The notes below the pieces were generated by a model. That model saw only the letters and a list, made by a program, of their open reading frames with translations, had not been told where the DNA came from and ran no database searches. The position numbers were made by a program, and so were the translations under genes. Shown piece by piece: positions 166-55,792 of a stretch of DNA of 64,000 nt; positions within the stretch are counted from its first letter, which is position 1; every line of letters starts with the position of its first letter. The stretch comes from an uncultured Lentisphaerota bacterium. GTDB taxonomy: Bacteria > Verrucomicrobiota > Kiritimatiellia > RFP12 > UBA1067. The stretch lies in contig ONVK01000001.1 of assembly GCA_900321255.1 (NCBI GenBank), positions 16,907-80,906 on the forward strand. The letters are read 5' to 3'.

Positions 166-240
166 TCGGGCGTGGCGCAGTGGTAGCGCAGTTGACTGTT
201 AATCAATTGGTCGCTGGTTCGAATCCAGCCGCCCGAGCCA
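166..240 (+). tRNA. tRNA-Asn (anticodon GTT)
   Basis: Cloverleaf read by eye: acceptor TCGGGCG/CGCCCGA, D-arm GCGC/AGTGGTAGCGC, anticodon loop CTGTTAA, T-arm GGTTCGAATCC, encoded CCA. Confidence 0.85.
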
Positions 241-265
241 ATTCTCCCTGATGAAGCTTTTAGAT

Positions 266-615
266 GGGGGTGATCCGGTTTCGACGGGACGCGTTGAGGT
301 CGGGTTGCGCGTCGTGGATCCTCGTTGGCCACGTAAAAAACGAGGAAAAAAAGTAATTGCGAACAACGATTACGCTCTCGCCGCCTAATTAACGGCCGCG
401 ATGTCGAAGCGCCGATGTCTGCTGAGCGCCGAGGCATAATTTAGCAGGCCACGCTGCAGGGCTCTCCGCTCGGGCGCTGCAGGGTGCCGAACCGAACGGA
501 TGGAAGGGGATAAGCCCGGACGTCGGCGTACTCCTTCCGAGACCAAAGGCGCCATACACGCGTAGAAGCTCGGTTGATTCCGTTTCGGACAGGGGTTCGA
601 CTCCCCTCACCTCCA
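266..615 (+). ncRNA. ssrA: tmRNA (ssrA), tag peptide ANNDYALAA
   Basis: 5' end GGGGGTGATCCGGTTTCGACGGG matches the tmRNA tRNA-like domain. Internal reading frame gcg aac aac gat tac gct ctc gcc gcc taa at about 358-387. 3' T-arm GGGGTTCGACTCCCC plus acceptor CACCTCC pairing with the 5' end. Six-frame ORFs 389..610 and 441..668 overlapping it are spurious. Confidence 0.85.
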
Positions 616-8924: not shown

Positions 8925-9038
8925 AACGTGTAGATCGTGTAGAAATCCTGCATGTTTCTACACGTTCTACACGGCTAATTATCTTCGACAAGAGGATTTC
9001 AATTACGACACTATTTTAAAATCGAAACGATCACAATC

Positions 9039-10235
9039 ATGAAAACGACGAAACATTATGGACCATACGGCGGACAGTACGTCGCCGAAACGCTGATGGG
9101 GCCGCTTAACGAACTTGCCGCGGCCTATCTCGAAGCGAAGGAGGACCCCGAGTTCCAGCGCGAATTCGCGGCTCTTCTCAAGGACTATGTCGGGCGCGAG
9201 TCGCCGATCACCGTCTGCAGGCGCTTGTCCGCGAAGCTCGGCGGCGCGACGATAGCCCTGAAGCGCGAGGACCTAAACCACACAGGCGCCCACAAGGTCA
9301 ACAACACGATCGGCCAGGCGCTGTTGGCTAAGCGCATGGGCAAGAAGCGGCTGATTGCGGAGACCGGCGCGGGGATGCACGGCGTCGCTACGGCGACGGT
9401 CGCCGCGCTTCTCGGAATGCCCTGCGAGGTCTACATGGGCGCGATAGACGTGAAGCGCCAGGCGCCGAATGTCGAGCGCATGAAGATGCTCGGCGCGACA
9501 GTCCACGCAATCGAGGAGGGCAGCGCGACATTGAAGGACGCGATGAACGAAGCTCTCCGCGACTGGGTCACGAACTGTGACGACACTTTCTACGTGATCG
9601 GGACGGCTGCCGGCCCCTATCCGTATCCCGAGATGGTGAAGGATTTCCAGTCCGTAATCGGACGCGAGGCGCGCCGCCAGTGCCTTGAGAAGTTCGGGCG
9701 TCTCCCCGACCAGGCGATCGCGTGCGTCGGCGGCGGGTCCAATGCCATCGGGCTCTTCGCCGGGTTCTTGGACGACGCGGGCGTAAAGCTCGTCGGCGTC
9801 GAGGCGGCTGGCAGGGGAATCGCGACGGGCGAGCACGCGGCGTCGATAAACGGCGGGCGGCTCGGCGTCCTGCACGGCGCCAAGACGATGCTGCTACAGA
9901 CAGCAGACGGCAACGTGATCGACACGTATTCCGTCTCGGCGGGTCTTGACTACCCGGGCGTCGGGCCGGAACACTGCTATCTCCACGACACGGGGCGCGC
10001 CGAATACTCGTCGATCACCGACGACGAGGCGATAGCCGCGTTCGACGACTTGTGCCGCTACGAGGGCATCATCCCCGCGCTCGAGTCGAGCCACGCGCTC
10101 GCGGAGGCGATAAAGCGCGCTCCGTCGCTTCCCAAGGAGACGATCCTCCTCGTGTGCCTCTCGGGGCGCGGCGACAAGGATCTCGAAAACATACTCGCAT
10201 ACAAGAAGAGCCGCTCTGCCGGCCAGGACATGTAA
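9039..10235 (+). CDS. trpB: tryptophan synthase beta chain
   Basis: [16 protein letters not shown] (PLP lysine), GGGSNAIG, and full-length TrpB similarity. Confidence 0.95.
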
Positions 10236-10292
10236 AACGCCTGCACGTTTCTGCACGTTCTACACGGCTAATGACATACAGGACGAAAAATC

Positions 10293-11623: not shown

Positions 11624-11848
11624 TGTATGATCTTTCAGACAGGATTAAGTGATTATGTTTTAGACAGGATTAACAAGATTAACAGGATTAAGAATTTTAG
11701 AATGGAGAACAGGAGATACAGGAGTTTTTGGAGGCGCCTTCGGCGCGGGGTCTGGGGTGCAACCCCAGTCTCCCTCCTGCCTCTCCTGTCCTACCTGCCA
11801 AAATCCTGTTAATCCTGTAAATCCTGTCAAAAAAAAGAAAGGTTAAAA

Positions 11849-12997
11849 ATGAAAAACCTCGAACAGACCAGAAGGGAAATAGACAGGATAGACGAAGGGC
11901 TCGTGAAGCTCTTCCTTGAACGGCTCGCCGTGTCGCGCGATGTCGCGATGGCGAAGCTCGAGACCGGCGGGCCGGTGTCGGATCCGGCGCGCGAGCGCGA
12001 GATACTTTCGCGCGTCTCAGTGGCGGCGGGCCCGGAGAACGAGAACGCGGCGCGTCTTTTCTTCACGACGCTTTTCTCGATATCAAAGGCGAGGCAGCGC
12101 GGCATACTGAAGGGCGACTCTCCGCTCGTGCGCGAGATAAGGGGCTCGATCGCCGCGCACGCCAACCCTTTCCCGTCGCGTGCGTTCGTCGCGTGCTGCG
12201 GTACCGAGGGCTCCTACGCGCAGCAGGCGGCGACGCGGCTCGTGAAGGTGCCGACGATCATGTACTTCAACTCGTTCGAGAAGGTCTTCGAGGCGGTCGA
12301 GAAGGGGCTTTGCGCCTACGGCGTGCTTCCCGTCGAGAACTCGGCCGCGGGCTCTGTCACTGCCGTCTACGACCTGATGCAGAAGCACAGCTTCCACATC
12401 GTGCGCGCCGTCCGGCTCAGGGTCGACCACGTTCTTCTGGCGCCGCCCGGAGTGGAGCTCTCCGAAGTGCGCGAAGTCGCGAGCCACCCCCATGCGCTTG
12501 CGCAGTGCACGGCGTTTTTCAAGTCGCATCCCGAGATCAAGGCGGTCCCCGCGGCGAACACGGCGGTTGCGGCGAAGGAAGTCGCGTCTTCCGGCCGGCG
12601 CGACGTCGCGGTCATCGCCTCGCGCTCGTGCGCCGAGCTGTACGGGCTCAGGATCGTGGCGGAGAAGATACAGGACGCCGTGAGCAACTACACGCGGTTC
12701 ATCTGCATTTCGAAGGGGCTCGAGATATATCCCGACGCGAACAAGATATCGATAATGCTGTCGCTTCCGCATAGGCCTGGGTCGCTTGCCGAGATAATAT
12801 CGAAGTTCGCCGCGATAGACGTCAACCTCACAAAGCTCGAGTCGCGCCCTGTCCCAGGCGTCGACTTCGAGTTCCGCTTCATCTTCGACTTCGAGGCGTC
12901 GCCTTCCGACGGGTCGGTCCTCTGTCTTCTGTCGGAGCTTTCGCAGGACCCGGAGATAGAGCACTTCGCCTTCCTCGGCGCCTACGGCGAGCGATAG
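11849..12997 (+). CDS. pheA: bifunctional chorismate mutase / prephenate dehydratase
   Basis: N-terminal AroQ chorismate mutase (REIDRIDEGLVKLFLERL), a PDT domain (VACCGTEGSYAQQAA, VLPVENS..G) and a C-terminal ACT domain. Confidence 0.85.
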   Translation: MKNLEQTRREIDRIDEGLVKLFLERLAVSRDVAMAKLETGGPVSDPAREREILSRVSVAAGPENENAARLFFTTLFSISKARQRGILKGDSPLVREIRGSIAAHANPFPSRAFVACCGTEGSYAQQAATRLVKVPTIMYFNSFEKVFEAVEKGLCAYGVLPVENSAAGSVTAVYDLMQKHSFHIVRAVRLRVDHVLLAPPGVELSEVREVASHPHALAQCTAFFKSHPEIKAVPAANTAVAAKEVASSGRRDVAVIASRSCAELYGLRIVAEKIQDAVSNYTRFICISKGLEIYPDANKISIMLSLPHRPGSLAEIISKFAAIDVNLTKLESRPVPGVDFEFRFIFDFEASPSDGSVLCLLSELSQDPEIEHFAFLGAYGER

Positions 12998-16020: not shown

Positions 16021-16998
16021 ATGAAGATCAAGTTCATCGCCAACATCAAGGGGATATACCTTGGATATTCGTTTGAACCTTCCGATGTAGTGACCATTGG
16101 GCGCGAGATCGGAAATACCATTGCGCCGATAAACGTTGACGGCTTTTCGCGTCATCACGCGCGCATCTTCTTCAAGGACGGTGCATGGTATGTCGAAGAC
16201 GTCGGCAGCACGAACGGCACCTACCGCAACCGCGTGAAGGTCGAAGCCCCGACAAAGATCGAGAAGGGTGATTCGATCAGGTGCGGGCTAATGGAACTTG
16301 CCTCGTTTGAATTCGAACCCTCTGCCGCGCCCGCTCCTGTCACCGCGGCCGAGCCGCCGAAGCCGGTTGCACCGGTCAAGCCCACCGAGACAGTCAAGCC
16401 CATTGAGCCGCCGAAGCCCATTGCGCCGGTCAAGCCCATTGAACCGCCGAAGCCGGTTGCACCGGTCAAGCCAGTCGAGCCGCCAAAGACAGTCGCGCCT
16501 GTCAAGCCGGCGGAGCCAGTTGCCCAGCTTGAGCCAGTGACGCCGCTTGACCCCGTCACGCCTCTAGAACCCGTCGCGCCTCTAGAACCCGTCGCGCCGC
16601 TTGAGCCAGTGACGCCGCTTGAGCCAGTTGCCCAGCTTGAGCCAGTGACGCCGCTTGAGCCGATTACGCCGCTCGAGCCGATCACGCCGCTTGAACCGGT
16701 CGAGGAACTCAAGCCTGTTTCACCTGTGAAGACGGAGAAGGTCCCAACCCCTGTTGCCGCCCCGGCGACGCTTCGCCGTCCGACGATACCGGGGCTGAAG
16801 CCCGGCCTCAAGCCAGGGCTCAAGCTTCCCCAGAAGGGCGGGGCGCTCCCCGCCGGCCTGAAGCTCCCGCCCAAGGGAGGTGCGCTTCCGACGGGCCTCA
16901 AGCTTCCGCCAAAGGGGGGTGCGCTCCCGACGGGCCTCAAGCTTCCGCCCAAGCCCGGTCTCAAGCCCGGTCTCAAGGTCCCCGGCAAGGGCGTATGA
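16021..16998 (+). CDS. FHA-domain protein with proline-rich tandem-repeat tail
   Basis: An N-terminal 100 aa FHA fold ([24 protein letters not shown]). This is followed by repeats [18 protein letters not shown] (x10) and [13 protein letters not shown] (x3). Confidence 0.7.
16330..16990 (+). repeat. coding tandem repeats (three families: about 33-bp, 18-bp and 39-bp units)
   Basis: Directly visible periodicity in the DNA and in the translated PKPxAPVKP / LEPVTP / [13 protein letters not shown] units. Confidence 0.8.
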
Positions 16999-35046: not shown

Positions 35047-35122
35047 CGGACTGTAGCTCAGTTGGTAGAGCACGACACTTTTAATGTTGGGGTCGCGGGT
35101 CCGATCCCCGCCAGTCCGACCA
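35047..35122 (+). tRNA. tRNA-Lys (anticodon TTT)
   Basis: Acceptor CGGACTG/CAGTCCG, D-arm GCTCAGTTGGTAGAGC, anticodon loop CTTTTAA, T-arm GGGTCCGATCCCC, encoded CCA. Confidence 0.85.
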
Positions 35123-37941: not shown

Positions 37942-38017
37942 GGGGAAGTAGCTCAGTTGGTAGAGCATCACGTTCGCAACGTGGGGGTCGAGAGTTCGAA
38001 TCTCTTCTTCTCCACCA
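37942..38017 (+). tRNA. tRNA-Ala (anticodon CGC)
   Basis: Acceptor GGGGAAG/CTTCTCC (G3-U70 wobble typical of tRNA-Ala), anticodon loop TTCGCAA, T-arm GAGAGTTCGAATCTCTT, encoded CCA. Confidence 0.85.
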
Positions 38018-38036
38018 TCCTTTCCGGAGGCTACGT

Positions 38037-38113
38037 GGGACTGTAGCTCAACTGGACAGAGCGACGGTTTCCTAAACCGTAGGTTCCGGGTTCGATTCCC
38101 GGCAGTCCCACCA
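38037..38113 (+). tRNA. tRNA-Arg (anticodon CCT)
   Basis: Acceptor GGGACTG/CAGTCCC, anticodon stem ACGGT/ACCGT with loop TTCCTAA, T-arm CCGGGTTCGATTCCCGG, encoded CCA. Confidence 0.85.
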
Positions 38114-42560: not shown

Positions 42561-43376
42561 ATGACCGATTTGTCCGAAATCCTCGATGGTGTCCGCGGCA
42601 AGATCGCCGCGGCGTGTGCGCGTGTCGGACGCGACCCTAACGAAGTCGAAATCGTCGCCGTCACCAAGACCCACGGCGCGGAGGTAGTGAAGGAGGCGTG
42701 GGACGCCGGGCTTACGATCGTCGGCGAAAACAAGGTGCAGGAGGCGGCGTGGAAAAAGCCAGCGAGCGTCTCCGGTCCGTCGTGGCACCTGATAGGCCAC
42801 CTCCAGTCGAACAAGGTTCGCCACGCGCTTGAGATCTTCGACTTCATCCACTCCGTCGATTCGATAAAGCTCGCGGACAGGATCAACTTCATTGCCGACG
42901 AAATCGGCGCGTCGCCACATATCCTTCTTGAAGTAAACGTCTCCGGCGAGAAGTCGAAGAGCGGCATGAAGCCAGAAGAGGTCGAGCCGACCATCAAGCA
43001 CATCGTCGAGTCGTGCCCACGAATCACTCTTGAGGGGCTTATGACTATGGCTCCGTTTAGCGAGAATCCCGAAGACGCGAGGCCGTATTTCCGCAGGCTG
43101 CGCGAGATGCGCGACGACCTCGAGTCGCGGCTTGGCGTCGGGCTTCCGCGCCTTTCGATGGGTATGAGCGGAGACTACGAAGTCGCCGTCGAGGAAGGCG
43201 CGACATGGGTCAGGCTTGGCACGGTGCTCTTTGGCGAGAGGCCAAAGGTCAAGCGTGTCGCCGCGTCGGAGGGCGACGACGGCACGACGCCGGGCGGCGA
43301 CACCGATACATACGCTGGCTTCGGCGGCCTTGATTCTTACTCTGGCGCCGGCCCGACGGCCAAAGTGCTGGACTGA
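42561..43376 (+). CDS. yggS: YggS-family pyridoxal-phosphate homeostasis protein
   Basis: VAVTKTH (PLP lysine), HLIGHLQSNK and LSMGMSGD motifs. Has an unusual roughly 40-aa Gly/Asp-rich C-terminal extension. Confidence 0.8.
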   Translation: MTDLSEILDGVRGKIAAACARVGRDPNEVEIVAVTKTHGAEVVKEAWDAGLTIVGENKVQEAAWKKPASVSGPSWHLIGHLQSNKVRHALEIFDFIHSVDSIKLADRINFIADEIGASPHILLEVNVSGEKSKSGMKPEEVEPTIKHIVESCPRITLEGLMTMAPFSENPEDARPYFRRLREMRDDLESRLGVGLPRLSMGMSGDYEVAVEEGATWVRLGTVLFGERPKVKRVAASEGDDGTTPGGDTDTYAGFGGLDSYSGAGPTAKVLD

Positions 43377-45946
43377 TGTTCCCAGTTGAAGAGAAGATAG
43401 ATGATATTCGTCGCGCGCTCGCGGCGAACAGGGATGTTGTCCTCACTGCGCCTCCCGGAAGCGGCAAGACTACTTGCGTGCCGCCGGCGCTCTTGGATGA
43501 GCCGTGGCTTGTGGGCAAGAAGATCGTCATGCTTGAACCGCGGCGGCTTGCCGCGCGCAACTGCGCGGCCTACATCGCGCGTAGACGCGGCGAGGCGGTT
43601 GGAGGCACCGTCGGCTACCAGGTGCGGCTTGAGCGCAAGATTTCCGCGGCAACGCGGCTTGAGATCGTGACGGAAGGGCTGCTCACTCAGCGTCTTCTTT
43701 CAGACCCGGAGCTTTCGGATGTCGGGCTCGTGATCTTCGATGAATTCCACGAGCGCTCGCTCCCCTGCGACACCGCGTTTGCGCTCGCGCTCGAAGTGCG
43801 ACGTGCGCTTAGGCCGGATCTTCGCATCCTTGTCATGTCAGCGACGCTCGACGCCGATGAAGTCGCCGCGCATCTCGGTGACGCCGACATCATTCGCGCC
43901 GAAGGGCGCATGTTTCCTGTTGAGACAAATTACCTTGGCGACATGTCGATGACGGCGGCGATATCGAAGGCACTGAAGGAAACGGATGGCGACATGCTTT
44001 GCTTTCTGCCGGGAGAGGGCGAGATAAGGCGCGTGCAGGAGGCGGTTGGCGCAGTGCGCGATGTCGATGTTCTTCCGCTCTACGGCAGTCTCCCCAAGGA
44101 AGAGCAGGACAGGGTATTTGAGCGCGGCGGACGGCGCAAGGTCATTCTCGCTACGTCGATCGCCGAGACTTCGGTTACGATCGAGGGCATTTCGACGGTG
44201 ATCGACTCGGGGCTTATGCGTGTGCCGCGCTTTCGCCCTGCGTCCGGGATGTCGGGGCTTGTGACTTTGCCGCTCACGCAAGACCGCGCAGAGCAGCGCA
44301 GAGGTCGCGCGGGGCGCTTGCGCGCGGGAGTTTGCTATCGGCTCTGGAGCGAGGGCGAGCAGCAGTCGCGTCCAAAGAAGATGATGCCAGAGATACTTGA
44401 CGCCGACCTTTGCTCGCTCGTTCTGACAAGCGCGGCGTGGGGTGCGCTTGGGCGCGAGGATCTGCCGTGGATGACACCGCCACCTGCGTCGAACTGGGAT
44501 CAGGCGGTAGGGCTTCTCAAGATGCTTGGTGCGCTTGATGGCGACGGACGGCTCACGAAGAAGGGCGAGGCGATGGCGAAGCTCCCGATGCATCCAAGGT
44601 TGGCGAATATGGTGATTGGTGGTAGCCGTATAGAAGGGGTTGGTGAGGCGTCGCTGCTGGCGGCGATTGTAGAAGAGGGGAATAGAAGCCGCGAGACGGA
44701 TATTAGGAAGATTGCCGAGGAGATCAGGGAGACGCCGAACCGTCCGTTTTCGAAAAGGGTGCTTCAGTTGGCACGGCGGTTTAACAAAGGGTCAGACCCC
44801 TCTGACACAGTAGCTGATACAGCTAAAGCTGCAATCAGCTACTGCAGTCAGAAAGGTCTGACCCTAGAAGGCTCTCTTCTTGCGCTTGCGTATCCTGACA
44901 GGGTTGCGAAGAACCGGGGAAATGGAACGTTCCGCATGGTGTCTGGGCGCGGCGCATTCCTCGACCAGTCCGATCCGCTTGCGAAGTCGCCTTATCTCGT
45001 CTGCTGCGAGCTCGACGACCGCGCGGGCGATGCGAAGGTCTTTCTTGGCTGTCCCATTGGCGAGGACGAGATCGAAGACCTCTTCGGCGATCGCATAACC
45101 GAGGAGCCGTACTGCGCGTGGGACAGGCAGAACGACCGCGTGAAGAGCGTCGTTCGCCGCAAGCTTGGCGAGATGACCCTTGGGGAGAAGCCGCTCTCGG
45201 CGGCAGACTCGCGCCACTCGGTGGACGTCGACGCAAGGATATCGGCGGCGCTTCTTGATGGCATTCGCCAGAAGGGAGTCGAGAATCTTCCCTGCTGGAC
45301 GAAGGAGTCGCGGCAATTCCGCGCAAGAATGGCGTTTTTGTCGCGGGTTTCTGGAAAAGGGTCAGACCCCTCTGACACAGTAACTGACACAGCTAAAGCT
45401 GCAGTCAGCTACTGCAGTCAGAAGGGTCTGACCCTAGACGCCAATAAAAATGGGGGTGAGTGGCCAAATCCAACTGATGGGGCGATTCTTGCCGCGTTGC
45501 CTGGTTTCATCGGCGGGATGACGAAGTGGAAGGATTTGGAGCGGCTTGACCTCTTTTCGGTCTTTGACTTTATGCTCGCGGAAGCGGGGCATGATAGGCG
45601 CGAGCTCGATCGTCTTGCGCCTACGCGCATGGAGGTTCCGAGCGGCAGCCACATGCTGATTCACTACGAGGGTGACGAACCGACGTGCGAAGTGCGGCTT
45701 CAGGAATGTTTCGGGCTTATGGAGACGCCGAAGGTCGCAGGCGGGAAAGTTCCTGTCGTAATGACGCTTCTTTCGCCTGCACAGCGGCCAATCCAGATAA
45801 CGAAAGACCTTGCGGGATTCTGGCGAGAAGGGTACCAGCTTGTCCGCAAGGACATGCGTGGCCGCTACCCGAAGCACTATTGGCCGGAAGACCCGTTCAC
45901 CGCCGTCGCGACACGTCGCACCGTCAAGCGTGCTGGCCAGGCCTGA
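43376..45946 (+). CDS. hrpB: ATP-dependent RNA helicase HrpB (with two in-frame 27-codon palindromic insertions)
   Basis: DEAH-box helicase motifs (GSGKTT, DEFHER, SAT), the HA2 and C-terminal HrpB domains. 856 aa versus about 809 typical; the excess is accounted for by two copies of KGSDPSDTV.DTAKAA.SYCSQKGLTL. Confidence 0.85.
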   Translation: MFPVEEKIDDIRRALAANRDVVLTAPPGSGKTTCVPPALLDEPWLVGKKIVMLEPRRLAARNCAAYIARRRGEAVGGTVGYQVRLERKISAATRLEIVTEGLLTQRLLSDPELSDVGLVIFDEFHERSLPCDTAFALALEVRRALRPDLRILVMSATLDADEVAAHLGDADIIRAEGRMFPVETNYLGDMSMTAAISKALKETDGDMLCFLPGEGEIRRVQEAVGAVRDVDVLPLYGSLPKEEQDRVFERGGRRKVILATSIAETSVTIEGISTVIDSGLMRVPRFRPASGMSGLVTLPLTQDRAEQRRGRAGRLRAGVCYRLWSEGEQQSRPKKMMPEILDADLCSLVLTSAAWGALGREDLPWMTPPPASNWDQAVGLLKMLGALDGDGRLTKKGEAMAKLPMHPRLANMVIGGSRIEGVGEASLLAAIVEEGNRSRETDIRKIAEEIRETPNRPFSKRVLQLARRFNKGSDPSDTVADTAKAAISYCSQKGLTLEGSLLALAYPDRVAKNRGNGTFRMVSGRGAFLDQSDPLAKSPYLVCCELDDRAGDAKVFLGCPIGEDEIEDLFGDRITEEPYCAWDRQNDRVKSVVRRKLGEMTLGEKPLSAADSRHSVDVDARISAALLDGIRQKGVENLPCWTKESRQFRARMAFLSRVSGKGSDPSDTVTDTAKAAVSYCSQKGLTLDANKNGGEWPNPTDGAILAALPGFIGGMTKWKDLERLDLFSVFDFMLAEAGHDRRELDRLAPTRMEVPSGSHMLIHYEGDEPTCEVRLQECFGLMETPKVAGGKVPVVMTLLSPAQRPIQITKDLAGFWREGYQLVRKDMRGRYPKHYWPEDPFTAVATRRTVKRAGQA
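44786..44866 (+). repeat. 81-bp near-perfect palindromic element inserted in-frame in hrpB (copy 1)
   Basis: AAAGGGTCAGACC...CTGACACAGTAGCTGAT-ACAGCTAAAGCTGCA-ATCAGCTACTGCAGTCAG...GGTCTGACCCTAG. Arms are mutually complementary; 27 codons. Confidence 0.8.
45356..45436 (+). repeat. 81-bp palindromic element inserted in-frame in hrpB (copy 2, same orientation, 570 bp downstream)
   Basis: About 94% identical to copy 1 and encodes the same 26-27 aa peptide. Confidence 0.8.
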
Positions 45947-48598: not shown

Positions 48599-48690
48599 AA
48601 GTTGGCGGTGGAGCGAAGGTCCGAGCGAGGGGATACGGCGTATTCGCCGAGGGTTCCCCGAGGAGGAGCCTTCGGACGCCGCCAACAAGC
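48599..48690 (+). repeat. 92-bp palindromic repeat element, copy A
   Basis: About 95% identical to the reverse complement of 55701-55792. Terminal inverted repeats (C)TTGTTGGCGGTGG / CCACCGCCAACAAG and central palindrome CGGCGAATACGCCG. Confidence 0.8.
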
Positions 48691-55700: not shown

Positions 55701-55792
55701 ACTTGTTGGCGGTGGCCGAAGGCTCCTCCTCGGGGAGCCCTCGGCGAATACGCCGTATCCCCTCGCTCGGACCTTTGCTCCACCGCCAACAA
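55701..55792 (-). repeat. 92-bp palindromic repeat element, copy B (inverted relative to copy A)
   Basis: Begins 2 nt after the GDPD stop codon, ends about 35 bp before the rplY promoter, and is followed by the hairpin AATTCGC-TCTTGC-GCGAATT. Confidence 0.8.

What the first reader, a model, noticed from the sequence alone, without database searches (positions are those of the whole stretch)
44786..45436. Two in-frame 81-bp near-perfect palindromes inserted into the hrpB coding sequence (RPE-like elements)
Copies at 44786-44866 and 45356-45436 are about 94% identical, in the same orientation and exactly 27 codons long. Each is almost perfectly self-complementary, with arms GGGTCAGACC...CTGACACAGTAGCTGAT pairing with ATCAGCTACTGCAGTCAG...GGTCTGACCC. 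Each translates to KGSDPSDTV(A/T)DTAKAA(I/V)SYCSQKGLTL, peptides with no counterpart in canonical HrpB, which is 856 aa here versus about 809. This mirrors Rickettsia palindromic elements, which are selfish DNAs that invade ORFs in-frame and create new peptide segments. It also implies very stable hairpins in the hrpB mRNA.
Basis: partly seen in the sequence, partly recalled or inferred. Interest (0 to 1): 0.75.

Follow-up and report, generated by a model that had tools for sequence, protein, structure and literature searches.

The report
In-frame REP palindromes inside hrpB
Two 78-base selfish DNA hairpins of the REP/REPIN kind, whose family flanks a dedicated tyrosine transposase gene in related rumen bacteria, sit in frame in two tolerant loops of an RNA-helicase gene and add about 27 amino acids each; this is real, but the phenomenon was described in 2013 in a related phylum.

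Summary
Two 83-nt copies (78-nt palindromic cores), 95% identical, lie in frame in a Kiritimatiellae hrpB. Each folds at about -54 kcal/mol (z about -9).

They are not an internal duplication. The same element occurs on 64 other contigs from rumen and goat-gut assemblies. Some copies are intergenic (for example inside an exbB-exbD-tonB operon). Some are half-elements (singlets). One is in frame in a third site, the PurL inter-domain linker.

Only 1 of the element's 6 reading frames is open, and all three intragenic sites use it.

The half-element flanks, in inverted orientation, a 351-aa gene held at a fixed chromosomal locus. That gene has conserved HUH and Tyr motifs, an NCBIfam REP-tyrosine-transposase match, and a predicted fold closest to E. 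coli TnpA-REP (4ER8). So the inserts are REP doublets (REPIN-like) of a REP-RAYT system, not Rickettsia RPEs, although they behave like RPEs.

Close HrpB orthologs show all presence/absence combinations, an empty site, and a deletion footprint. Other repeat families occupy the same loops.

Intragenic REP dimers, sometimes two per gene and including RNA helicases of Opitutus terrae, were reported by Di Nocera et al. 2013. This is therefore a new member of a known kind, of moderate interest.

Translation of the inserts and RAYT-driven mobility are inferred, not shown.

The parts
43376..45946 (+). Host gene hrpB (DExH-box ATP-dependent RNA helicase), 856 aa
   Evidence: ORF list. Pfam DEAD, Helicase_C, HA2_N, HrpB_C. 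E. coli HrpB 6HEG/6EUD at E about 1e-151. An identical protein, P0001, is on at least 8 contigs.
44786..44868 (+). Copy 1 (site C): 83-nt stretch shared with copy 2. Encodes aa 471-497, KGSDPSDTVADTAKAAISYCSQKGLTL, in the helical-bundle region of HrpB.
   Evidence: Falls in a gap of the alignment to E. coli HrpB near residues 478-487. 23 of 120 orthologs carry it here.
44788..44823 (+). Copy 1, left REP unit (AGGGTCAGACCCCTCTGACACAGTAGCTGATACAGC)
   Evidence: Identical over its first 25-27 nt to the REP singlets that flank the RAYT gene. Forms the 5' arm of the hairpin.
44824..44827 (+). Copy 1, apical loop TAAA
   Evidence: Minimum-free-energy structure.
44828..44865 (+). Copy 1, right REP unit in inverted orientation (GCTGCAATCAGCTACTGCAGTCAGAAAGGTCTGACCCT)
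   Evidence: Inverted-repeat arms 44788-44806 and 44847-44865. Hairpin of -53.9 kcal/mol, z = -9.4.
45356..45438 (+). Copy 2 (site D): 83-nt shared stretch. Encodes aa 661-687, KGSDPSDTVTDTAKAAVSYCSQKGLTL, between the connector region and the HrpB_C domain.
   Evidence: Lies between the two HMMER alignment blocks to E. coli HrpB, residues 638 and 648. 7 of 120 orthologs carry it here. An empty site, a footprint and layered variants are seen in orthologs.
45358..45393 (+). Copy 2, left REP unit
45394..45397 (+). Copy 2, apical loop TAAA
45398..45435 (+). Copy 2, right REP unit in inverted orientation
   Evidence: Inverted-repeat arms 45358-45376 and 45417-45435, 95% complementary. Hairpin of -52.9 kcal/mol, z = -8.4.
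45439..45451 (+). Remnant (CGCCAATAAAAAT, encoding part of DANKN) of an older insert at site D that the doublet sits in
   Evidence: Nucleotide alignment of site D. The empty ortholog L066 reads CGTATT|AATGGGGGT. L067 has a different 78-nt insert ending ...GCCAATAAA.

Best explanation
Each insert is a REP doublet (REPIN-like): two copies of a roughly 36-nt repetitive palindromic unit in inverted, tail-to-tail orientation, forming a 78-nt hairpin. The family belongs to a REP-RAYT system of rumen and gut Kiritimatiellae. Single REP units flank, in inverted orientation, a gene at a fixed chromosomal locus that encodes a divergent HUH/Y1 (IS200-like) REP-associated tyrosine transposase. Singlets and doublets are scattered through intergenic DNA. 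Occasionally a doublet ends up inside a gene. Because 5 of the element's 6 reading frames contain stop codons, only copies in one orientation and frame, and only in loops or linkers that tolerate any sequence, survive selection. This has happened twice in hrpB (a helical-bundle loop and the connector/C-terminal linker) and once in purL (the synthetase/amidotransferase linker). The copies are then simply transcribed and translated as 26-27 extra residues, inherited vertically, and later lost or overwritten by deletions and by other repeat families. What is shown: the repeat, the hairpin, the dispersal, the frame restriction, the presence/absence polymorphism, and the association of the REP with a RAYT-like gene. 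What is inferred: that the RAYT mobilises the doublets, that the inserts are translated, and that they are neutral passengers on the protein surface.
For: Dispersal: the arm pattern hits 13 loci in 4 Kiritimatiellae MAGs and 51 metagenome contigs, giving 37 full-length doublets and 44 half-elements. Context: doublets are intergenic inside an exbB-exbD-tonB operon and upstream of other genes. Intragenic copies occur only at HrpB site C, HrpB site D and the PurL linker, always in the same orientation and frame. Frame filter: 1 of 6 frames is stop-free. All 9 distinct coding-copy sequences keep the canonical length, whereas 8 of 14 distinct intergenic sequences carry a 1-nt indel. RAYT: in L014, L041 and 6 further assemblies one REP lies immediately upstream and one, inverted, immediately downstream of a 351-aa ORF. 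That ORF always sits at yajC-LysM-comEC-[ORF]-dinB-PHP. It matches NCBIfam NF047646 REP_Tyr_transpos at E = 3e-14 and Pfam Y1_Tnp at the cutoff. H58-F59-H60 and Y182/D184/N186 are conserved across about 100 homologs. The AF2 model (pLDDT 87.7) has E. coli TnpA-REP bound to a REP hairpin (4ER8) as its best PDB fold match, probability 1.0, TM 0.67 on the target, followed by IS200/IS608/ISDra2 TnpA. A second RAYT lineage, 63% identical and at another fixed locus, is flanked by its own cognate REP of the same architecture. Turnover: among 120 HrpB orthologs 23 carry site C, 7 site D, 5 both and 95 neither. There is an empty site D the same length as in distant orthologs, plus a footprint, AAAGGGTC-AGAC-GCC, consistent with deletion between AGAC repeats. 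Hairpin maintenance: two stem positions show compensatory changes across copies (GC:10/AU:4 and CG:14/UA:2). Permissive sites: the HrpB loops and the PurL linker vary widely in length and sequence among orthologs. Precedent: intragenic GTAG-REP dimers encoding 20-30 aa, sometimes twice per ORF, most numerous in Opitutus terrae (PMC3733652).
Against: The RAYT gene and an hrpB or purL element were never seen on the same contig or in the same named genome. The four GTDB MAGs that carry the element showed no RAYT-type inverted REP pair. MAG incompleteness could explain that, but it is a gap. The RAYT match is below NCBIfam's equivalog cutoff (53 versus 80 bits). The protein is twice the usual RAYT size, with a helical insertion and a C-terminal Fic-like winged helix. 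No clean insertion junction exists: at site D, 14 nt (GCAGGGGCAACCCC) of an older insert are replaced by 95 nt. At site C and in PurL the doublet occupies the whole loop. So recombination or templated repair, rather than transposition, may have put it there. The copy number seen per MAG is low (1-5 exact-arm matches), unlike classical REPIN populations. The covariation evidence is thin (2 of 25 pairs), and the left 24 nt were fixed by the search pattern. There is no transcript or peptide evidence for translation. The surface location was not tested (the HrpB AF2 model had pLDDT 49).
Confidence: 0.85

Rival explanations
1. The doublets are genuine REP-family sequences, but they reached hrpB and purL by homologous or microhomology-mediated recombination, gene conversion or template switching between hairpin-forming repeats that were already in those loops. 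RAYT-catalysed transposition into the gene was not involved.
For: There is no clean insertion junction and no target duplication. At site D the doublet replaces a 14-nt mini-palindrome (GGGGCAACCCC) of an older insert, for a net gain of 81 nt. The older insert contains GGGGACAGACCCC, which resembles the REP head. At the PurL site two different sequence subtypes of the doublet occupy the same position in different lineages. A deletion between 4-nt repeats removed the element in P0041. Other repeat families occupy the same loops.
Against: Y1/HUH transposases of the IS200/IS605 type are known not to make target duplications, so the lack of a TSD does not discriminate. A donor-dependent recombination route still needs the dispersed family created by some mobilising activity. 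Loops without constraint erase junctions quickly.
Confidence: 0.15
2. The inserts have been co-opted. Either the peptide adds a function to HrpB and PurL, or the very stable mRNA hairpins regulate hrpB expression, for example as substrates of the encoded RNA helicase.
For: Both copies are kept intact and in frame on at least 8 contigs and in several species-level lineages. Site-specific substitutions (mostly Ile at site C, Val at site D) are shared across genomes, so the copies are old. The hairpin is kept by compensatory changes. Di Nocera et al. noted enrichment of intragenic REPs in nucleic-acid enzymes (PMC3733652).
Against: 95 of 120 close orthologs lack the peptide, and all four presence/absence combinations exist. 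The same loops hold unrelated sequences in other orthologs. The same DNA occurs in non-coding contexts, where the peptide is irrelevant. The amino-acid conservation follows from DNA-level palindrome conservation. No Pfam or Rfam family matches the insert.
Confidence: 0.07
3. The element is a classical MITE: a deletion derivative of a DDE-type insertion sequence, mobilised through its terminal inverted repeats and leaving target-site duplications.
For: It is about 80 nt long, has perfect terminal inverted repeats, is dispersed, and exists in a 1.15-kb 'full-length' form with the same termini around an ORF.
Against: No target-site duplication is seen at any of about 10 distinct sites. The ORF between the termini is a Y1/HUH transposase, not a DDE enzyme. 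That unit sits at one fixed chromosomal locus in 8 assemblies rather than at scattered sites.
Confidence: 0.03
4. The two copies are a local internal duplication within hrpB, or an assembly artefact, with no mobile element involved.
For: Only two copies exist in the 64-kb window, both in one gene.
Against: The same element occurs on 64 other contigs, including purL and intergenic sites. Orthologs exist with only site C or only site D filled. The identical gene is assembled independently at least 8 times.
Confidence: 0.01

Closest known systems
Intragenic GTAG-tagged REPs and REP dimers, especially in Opitutus terrae (Di Nocera, De Gregorio & Rocco 2013, BMC Genomics 14:522; PMC3733652)
   Same: Short palindromic REP units, often as inverted dimers, are found inside ORFs of known proteins. 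They encode 20-30 extra residues, sometimes twice in the same gene. They are most numerous in a PVC-superphylum bacterium and include RNA helicases. REP ends can supply stop codons to neighbouring genes, seen here for comEC. The REPs are associated with RAYT genes. Our unit carries ...ACAGTAG at its inner end.
   Different: The host lineage is different (uncultured rumen Kiritimatiellae) and so is the REP sequence. Here the tag lies 3' of the small hairpin and is GTAA in some copies. The associated transposase is about 350 aa with an extra helical insert and a winged-helix C-terminus. Population data here add an empty site, a deletion footprint and replacement by other repeat families.
REPIN-RAYT systems of Pseudomonas and Enterobacteria (Bertels & Rainey 2011, PMC3116915; Bertels et al. 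2017, PMC5581495; E. coli TnpA-REP structure 4ER8)
   Same: Inverted REP doublets form a long hairpin. The RAYT gene is flanked by REPs, sits at a fixed locus and appears vertically inherited. HUH and Tyr motifs are present. The fold is closest to 4ER8. Cognate REP and RAYT co-vary between lineages.
   Different: Classical REPINs are extragenic and number in the tens to hundreds per genome. Here a large share of the distinct doublet sites seen (3 of about 10) are inside genes, and the observed copy number per MAG is low, although the census is incomplete. The RAYT architecture is larger, and its NCBIfam score is below the equivalog cutoff.
Rickettsia palindromic elements (RPE-1 to RPE-10; Ogata et al., as cited in PMC3733652)
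   Same: They behave the same way: selfish palindromic repeats are found in frame within ORFs that remain functional, adding peptide segments, as well as in intergenic DNA.
   Different: RPEs are alphaproteobacterial. According to PMC3733652, RPE-4 and RPE-6 belong to the CGTC-tagged repeat superfamily; that statement was not made for the other RPE families. RPE-1 is longer (my recollection: about 100-150 nt). To my knowledge no RAYT is linked to them. The present element has no CGTC end and is tied to a RAYT.
Bacterial MITEs such as Correia/NEMIS elements (review PMC10969869)
   Same: Small, non-autonomous, hairpin-forming repeats with inverted termini that can be co-transcribed with genes.
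   Different: MITEs depend on DDE transposases and make target-site duplications. Neither is seen here.

Membership tests
REP / REPIN-RAYT system | Short repeated unit capable of forming a stem-loop, present in multiple dispersed copies | tested here: met
   Unit AGGGTCAGACCCCTCTGACACAGTA(G/A), with an internal 6-bp stem GTCAGA/TCTGAC. Found in 64 loci outside the window; 44 half-elements and 37 doublets.
REP / REPIN-RAYT system | Two REPs in inverted orientation with a short spacer, folding into one long hairpin (REPIN) | tested here: met
   78-nt doublets, -53 to -54 kcal/mol, z about -9. Consensus structure of 25 pairs across 17 distinct copies, 2 of them with compensatory changes.
REP / REPIN-RAYT system | A RAYT gene flanked on both sides by the REP in inverted orientation | tested here: met
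   L014, L041 and L068-L073: a REP at -35 to -75 nt upstream, and an inverted REP directly after the stop codon. Not shown on the same genome as the window.
REP / REPIN-RAYT system | The transposase is a Y1/HUH enzyme of the RAYT clade (HUH motif, catalytic Tyr, RAYT-like fold) | tested here: met
   NF047646 at E = 3e-14 (53 bits, below the 80-bit equivalog cutoff). PF01797 at 22-24 bits against a cutoff of 23. H58/F59/H60 and Y182/D184/N186 conserved. Foldseek top hit 4ER8, probability 1.0.
REP / REPIN-RAYT system | RAYT is single-copy and vertically inherited (fixed locus), unlike an IS | tested here: inconclusive
   The same locus, yajC-LysM-comEC-RAYT-dinB-PHP, appears in 6 assemblies plus L014 and L041. 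A second lineage sits at another fixed locus. Copy number per complete genome could not be counted.
REP / REPIN-RAYT system | Copies predominantly extragenic | tested here: inconclusive
   All singlets seen are extragenic or at gene ends. Of about 10 distinct doublet sites, 3 are intragenic. The census is limited to exact-arm matches in incomplete assemblies.
REP / REPIN-RAYT system | Conserved GTAG tetranucleotide at one end of the REP (GTAG superfamily, PMC3733652) | tested here: inconclusive
   Most units end ...ACAGTAG, but some end GTAA (copy 2 of the window; several singlets). The tag's position relative to the hairpin was not compared with the published families.
REP / REPIN-RAYT system | Mobilisation of REP/REPIN by the RAYT | not testable with these tools
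   Needs biochemistry or genetics. Only association and co-variation of REP with RAYT lineage were shown.
Rickettsia palindromic elements (RPE) | Palindromic repeat inserted in frame in ORFs that stay open | tested here: met
   Three intragenic sites, all in the single open frame.
Rickettsia palindromic elements (RPE) | Belongs to the RPE sequence families of Rickettsia. PMC3733652 identifies RPE-4 and RPE-6 as members of the CGTC-tagged superfamily. | tested here: not met
   The host is Kiritimatiellae. The element has no CGTC terminus and carries a GTAG/GTAA tag instead.
Rickettsia palindromic elements (RPE) | Insert lies on the protein surface without disturbing the fold | tested here: inconclusive
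   The inserts fall in alignment gaps against E. coli HrpB and in loops that are hypervariable among orthologs. The AF2 model of HrpB was too poor to use (pLDDT 49).
MITE (DDE-transposase dependent) | Target-site duplication flanking the element | tested here: not met
   No duplicated flank at any site.
MITE (DDE-transposase dependent) | Termini shared with an autonomous IS that encodes a DDE transposase | tested here: not met
   The only unit with these termini encodes a Y1/HUH enzyme and is not scattered.

The most novel reading that the evidence does not exclude
Rumen Kiritimatiellae may carry a previously undescribed clade of REP-associated tyrosine transposases (about 350 aa, with a helical insertion and a C-terminal winged helix) whose REP doublets enter transcribed coding DNA unusually often. 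Together with several other repeat families, they would make a few permissive loops of housekeeping enzymes (HrpB, PurL) into fast-evolving 'landing pads'. In that reading the -54 kcal/mol hairpins inside the mRNA of an RNA helicase could also feed back on its own expression.
Probability: 0.12. Interest if true: 0.6.

Novelty: new member of a known kind. Interest (0 to 1): 0.4.

Why it matters
The finding gives a clean, population-level example of how selfish palindromic DNA creates new peptide segments in essential-type enzymes. The available states include filled, empty, footprint and overwritten sites. The frame filter is unusually sharp: only 1 of 6 frames is tolerated. It extends REP-RAYT biology to an uncultured PVC lineage and points to a RAYT variant with extra domains that could be tested biochemically. 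For annotators, it explains the length heterogeneity and the odd low-complexity segments in Kiritimatiellae HrpB and PurL. It does not open a new category: intragenic REP dimers, including two per gene and in RNA helicases, were reported in 2013.

Tried and rejected
1. AF2 of the window HrpB with 33 close orthologs gave pLDDT 48.9 and pTM 0.30. It was unusable, so there is no structural mapping of the inserts.
2. Sequence and profile searches of the RAYT-like protein against PDB sequences gave only weak IS200-type hits (E about 0.01) and spurious streptavidin matches. The fold search settled the question instead.
It was redone with P0124 as the first row.
4. I looked for a transposase between the two intergenic copies in L005. 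Only exbD and exbB lie there.
5. I looked for target-site duplications and a common target motif in the flanks of about 10 sites. None was found beyond A/T-richness.
6. Rfam and promoter/terminator scans of the region gave only generic long-hairpin (miRNA-precursor) hits far below threshold. One terminator-like match was found, no more than shuffles give.
7. An inverted-repeat scan of the other hrpB inserts in orthologs did not show them to be strong palindromes at the settings used. A direct-repeat scan did show a second family present twice in L065.
8. I tried to link a RAYT to a named MAG that carries the hrpB element. P0132 turned out to be a different lineage in another MAG.
9. I considered and rejected an intron/intein or translational-bypass reading. 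The strict use of the only open frame and the length of 26-27 codons make plain translation the simplest reading.
Full report
1. OBSERVATION

The window carries two 83-nt direct repeats at 44786-44868 and 45356-45438. They share 79 of 83 bases (95%). The self-complementary core of each is 78 nt: 44788-44865 and 45358-45435. A 35-mer from the element matches nowhere else in the window, and none of 100 shuffles gave any match. A profile search finds no diverged copy or half-copy in the window.

Each copy folds into one long hairpin. The energies are -53.9 and -52.9 kcal/mol, z = -9.4 and -8.4, and 0 of 200 shuffles fold as well. Of the four differences between the copies, two are a compensatory pair (T-A to C-G), one adds a pair and one breaks a pair.

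Both copies lie in the same frame of the 856-aa ORF 43376-45946. That ORF is HrpB by Pfam and by its match to the E. coli HrpB structures 6HEG and 6EUD (E about 1e-151). The encoded peptides are aa 471-497 and aa 661-687, and both fall in gaps of the alignment to E. coli HrpB. The identical protein is on at least 8 independently assembled contigs.

2. ORGANISM AND ORTHOLOGS

The 120 closest HrpB proteins (72-100% identity) come from rumen and gut metagenomes. Those that carry a name are Kiritimatiellae MAGs. Their lengths range from 791 to 928 aa.

An alignment of 33 of them shows four hypervariable loops: after aa 227, at 418-422, at 470-497 (site C) and at 660-692 (site D). Of the 120 proteins, 23 carry the KGSDPSDTV... 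peptide at site C, 7 at site D, 5 at both and 95 at neither. All four combinations occur.

In other orthologs the same loops hold unrelated cassettes. In L065 (P0041) a different repeat of about 130 nt, with GGTAGGGACG...CGCCCCTACC termini, sits twice in hrpB, at sites A and C. A 14/21-nt tandem repeat fills site B in the same locus.

3. THE ELEMENT IS DISPERSED

An exact-pattern scan for the arm (GGGTCAGACCYYTCTGAC N1-2 CAGTA) found 13 loci on different contigs of four Kiritimatiellae MAGs (RUG12088, RUG12612, RUG14632, RGIG2266) and 51 metagenome contigs. BLAST against these loci gave 37 full-length doublets and 44 half-elements.

- Doublets occur in intergenic DNA. Examples are the exbD/tonB gap and the region upstream of exbB within one operon, and the region upstream of another gene start.
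- Inside genes, doublets occur at only three sites: HrpB site C, HrpB site D, and the PurL linker between the synthetase and glutamine-amidotransferase domains (TFDPE|KGSDPSDTV...|AKPKMAILREQG).
- At the PurL site two sequence subtypes occur in different lineages.
- The PurL linker is itself hypervariable among 120 orthologs, at about 10-33 aa. Only one ortholog cluster in that set carries the element.

4. FRAME FILTER

Only one of the six reading frames of the element lacks stop codons. All three intragenic sites use that orientation and frame. If orientation and frame were unconstrained, this would happen with probability (1/6)^3, about 0.005.

All 9 distinct coding-copy sequences keep the canonical length. 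In contrast, 8 of 14 distinct intergenic sequences have a 1-nt indel. This is a trend only, because copies at orthologous sites are not independent. The pattern is what selection on a translated insert predicts. It argues against RNA-level removal or ribosomal bypass.

5. WHAT MOBILISES IT

The half-elements read AGGGTCAGACCCCTCTGACACAGTA-nn-AGTGACACAGTAG. In L014 and L041 two such units face each other about 1.15 kb apart around a 351-aa ORF.

Evidence on that ORF:

- It matches NCBIfam REP_Tyr_transpos (NF047646) at E = 3e-14. The score is 53 bits, below the 80-bit equivalog cutoff.
- It matches Pfam Y1_Tnp at the threshold, and it has a C-terminal Fic-like winged helix.
- About 200 homologs exist, and those that are named are from Kiritimatiellae.
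- H58-F59-H60 and Y182/D184/N186 are conserved across them.
- An AF2 model of P0124 (99-sequence alignment, pLDDT 87.7, pTM 0.74) has as its best PDB fold match 4ER8, the E. coli REP-associated tyrosine transposase bound to a REP hairpin (E = 7e-5, probability 1.0, TM 0.67 on the target). IS200, IS608 and ISDra2 TnpA follow.
- The gene sits at the same locus, yajC-LysM-comEC-[RAYT]-dinB-PHP, in six further assemblies. In every case one REP lies just upstream and an inverted one lies just after the stop codon. The upstream REP also supplies the last codons and the stop codon of comEC.
- A second lineage (P0132, 63% identity) sits at another fixed locus (RNase PH-RAYT-MoxR). It is flanked by its own 47-nt inverted REPs of the same architecture: an AAAGGGTCAGAC head followed by two GAnACAG repeats.

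A fixed locus, flanking inverted REPs, cognate REP/enzyme co-variation and dispersed singlets and doublets are the hallmarks described for REP-RAYT/REPIN systems (PMC5581495; PMC3733652).

6. HOW THE COPIES GOT INTO hrpB, AND WHAT HAPPENED AFTERWARDS

Nucleotide alignment of site D shows several states:

- An empty state in L066/P0023 (CGTATT|AATGGGGGT), the same length as in distant orthologs.
- A different 78-nt insert in L067/P0006.
- The REP doublet together with varying remnants of that older insert in the window, L009, L047 and L019.
- In L065/P0041, only AAAGGGTC-AGAC-GCC. That is exactly what a deletion between the two AGAC repeats would leave.

Comparing L067 with L019, 14 nt (GCAGGGGCAACCCC) are replaced by 95 nt, a net gain of 81 nt. 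There is therefore no clean junction and no target duplication. Site-specific substitutions are shared across genomes: mostly Ile at site C and Val at site D. So the two hrpB copies are old and vertically inherited, and they are not being homogenised.

The lack of a target duplication is compatible with Y1 transposition, based on what is known for IS200/IS605. The replacement pattern leaves room for a recombination or templated-repair route, which is rival 1.

7. MOST LIKELY MECHANISM

The inserts are REPIN-like doublets of a REP-RAYT system. They land, or are copied, into many places. Within genes, only copies in the single open frame and in loops or linkers that accept any sequence survive. 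They are then transcribed and translated as 26-27 extra residues, and later decay or are overwritten.

- Shown: the repeat, the hairpin, dispersal, frame restriction, polymorphism, and the REP-RAYT association.
- Inferred: RAYT-driven mobility, translation, and neutrality on the protein surface.

8. COMPARISON WITH WHAT IS KNOWN

Di Nocera et al. 2013 (PMC3733652) already described REPs inside ORFs. More than half of those inserts were dimers or groups encoding 20-30 aa, and some genes carried two inserts. The highest number for GTAG-type REPs was in Opitutus terrae, a PVC bacterium, and the hosts included DNA-repair genes and RNA helicases. The same paper identifies Rickettsia RPE-4 and RPE-6 as members of the CGTC-tagged REP superfamily.

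The present element works like an RPE but fails RPE membership. The host is different, there is no CGTC end, and the element is linked to a RAYT. It fits the REP/REPIN-RAYT description with these caveats:

- The RAYT is atypically large.
- Its NCBIfam score is below the equivalog cutoff.
- The observed copy number is low.
- A high share of the doublet sites seen are intragenic.
- Co-occurrence of the RAYT and the hrpB element in one genome is not shown.

The DDE-type MITE reading is rejected: there is no TSD and the enzyme is Y1.

9. NEGATIVE RESULTS AND LIMITS

- The AF2 model of HrpB was unusable, so 'surface loop' rests on alignment gaps and hypervariability only.
- Rfam and promoter/terminator scans gave nothing meaningful.
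- Covariation support is modest: 2 of 25 pairs, with the left 24 nt fixed by the search pattern.
- The census relies on exact arm matches in fragmentary assemblies.

10. VERDICT

Novelty: a new member of a known kind. Interest is moderate, 0.4. The value lies in the clear frame filter, the population-level turnover at defined loops, and a RAYT variant with extra domains in an uncultured PVC lineage.

Noticed in passing
L014:8427-9482; L068:2501-3556 (P0124): The RAYT-like protein of this clade is about 350 aa. It has a helical insertion of about 70 aa between the HUH and Tyr motifs and a C-terminal Fic-like winged-helix domain (PF21247). About 200 homologs exist, and those with names are from Kiritimatiellae. 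This may be an undescribed RAYT architecture.
   Followed up: partly
L080:247-293 and 1374-1420 (GCA_017477275, JAFUXD010000024): A second RAYT lineage (P0132, 63% identical) sits at a different fixed locus (RNase PH-RAYT-MoxR). It is flanked by its own 47-nt inverted REPs, AAAGGGTCAGACTTTTTCAATACAGCCGATTGATACAG, which share the head and the tandem GAnACAG layout of the first family.
   Followed up: partly
L002:3385-3466; also L049, L052, L054, L055, L056: The same REP doublet lies in frame in the PurL synthetase/amidotransferase linker. Two sequence subtypes occupy the same site in different lineages. L055 has an extra partial duplication of the 3' end (SQKGPTLDMSSQKGPTL).
   Followed up: yes
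L065:969-1096 and 1878-2077 (ortholog P0041): A different repeat of about 130 nt, with GGTAGGGACG...CGCCCCTACC termini, is present twice in hrpB (sites A and C) of an ortholog. The parts are 94-100% identical and encode ...GTSRHSLRSACLLPHGSQTPARGGY.QDVRGRLGTGAPT.
   Followed up: partly
L065:1652-1707; orthologs P0027, P0038 and P0041 at HrpB aa 418-422: Site B of HrpB holds 14/21-nt tandem repeats (TCAGGGGTCAGGAGTCAGGGG) that translate to QESGVRSQE repeats. The same GGGGTCAGGAGTCAG motif follows REP singlets in L006, L023, L036, L040 and L045.
   Followed up: no
L005:7151-7393 versus orthologs P0011 and P0022 at site C: Another cassette at HrpB site C (FNAESQ...LRLSALAPLGLARYESRAPLARRLCVSALKTS) also has an intergenic counterpart between exbD and exbB in L005 (translation MRLSALASLGLARYESRAPLSRRLRASAL). 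So at least one further repeat family is shared between intergenic DNA and the hrpB loops.
   Followed up: no
L065 (P0041) site D; L066 (P0023) site D: P0041 keeps only AAAGGGTCAGAC (KGSD), as expected from a deletion between two AGAC repeats that removed 72 nt of the doublet. P0023 has a completely empty site D, the same length as in distant orthologs.
   Followed up: yes
Ortholog P0002, HrpB site C: A tandem of about 1.8 copies of the element peptide (KGSDPSDTVADTAKAAISYCSRSEKGSDPSDTVADTAKAAISYCSQKGLTL), which suggests slippage or unequal recombination within the doublet.
   Followed up: no
L068:2400-2470; L014:8361-8402: The REP upstream of the RAYT overlaps the end of the comEC-like gene and supplies its last codons and its TGA stop (…QKRVRPL*).
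   Followed up: partly
L015:13794-13917; L059:13218-13341: A longer, 124-nt doublet has the same REP termini but a different GC-rich centre and is followed by a T/A run. It may be a terminator-like variant of the family.
   Followed up: no
L018, L020, L024, L025, L027, L030, L033, L048, L057, L063: REP singlets are often followed by a shared sequence of about 100 nt (...GTGGGGTATGCAGCCGAATACCTC...). This may be a composite repeat or a conserved leader.
   Followed up: no
L016:822-900: A short metagenome contig joins the left flank of an intergenic copy to the right flank of the purL copy. It is probably a chimeric assembly through the repeat.
   Followed up: no
window 48601-48689 and 55702-55790: Two 89-nt copies, 96% complementary and 7 kb apart, both apparently intergenic. 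The unit is itself palindromic (TTGGCGGTGGAGCGAAGGTCCG...CGGACGCCGCCAA), so this is a different palindromic repeat family in the same genome.
   Followed up: no
window 11658-11833: A 176-nt long hairpin with arms TTTTAGACAGGATTAACAAGATTAACAGGATT and AATCCTGTTAATCCTGTAAATCCTGTCAAAAA lies just upstream of an ORF start near 11850.
   Followed up: no
window 8938-8979 and 10231-10272: A 42-nt direct repeat (88% identity), TGTAGAAATCCTGCATGTTTCTACACGTTCTACACGGCTAAT. A related GTTCTACACGGCT follows REP singlets in L038 and L051.
   Followed up: no
window 16371-16730: A tandem array of at least 11 copies of an 18-nt (6-codon) unit.
   Followed up: no
window 166-615; 35047-35122; 37942-38113: tRNA-Asn followed by a tmRNA (tag ANNDYALAA); also tRNA-Lys, tRNA-Ala and tRNA-Arg.
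   Followed up: no
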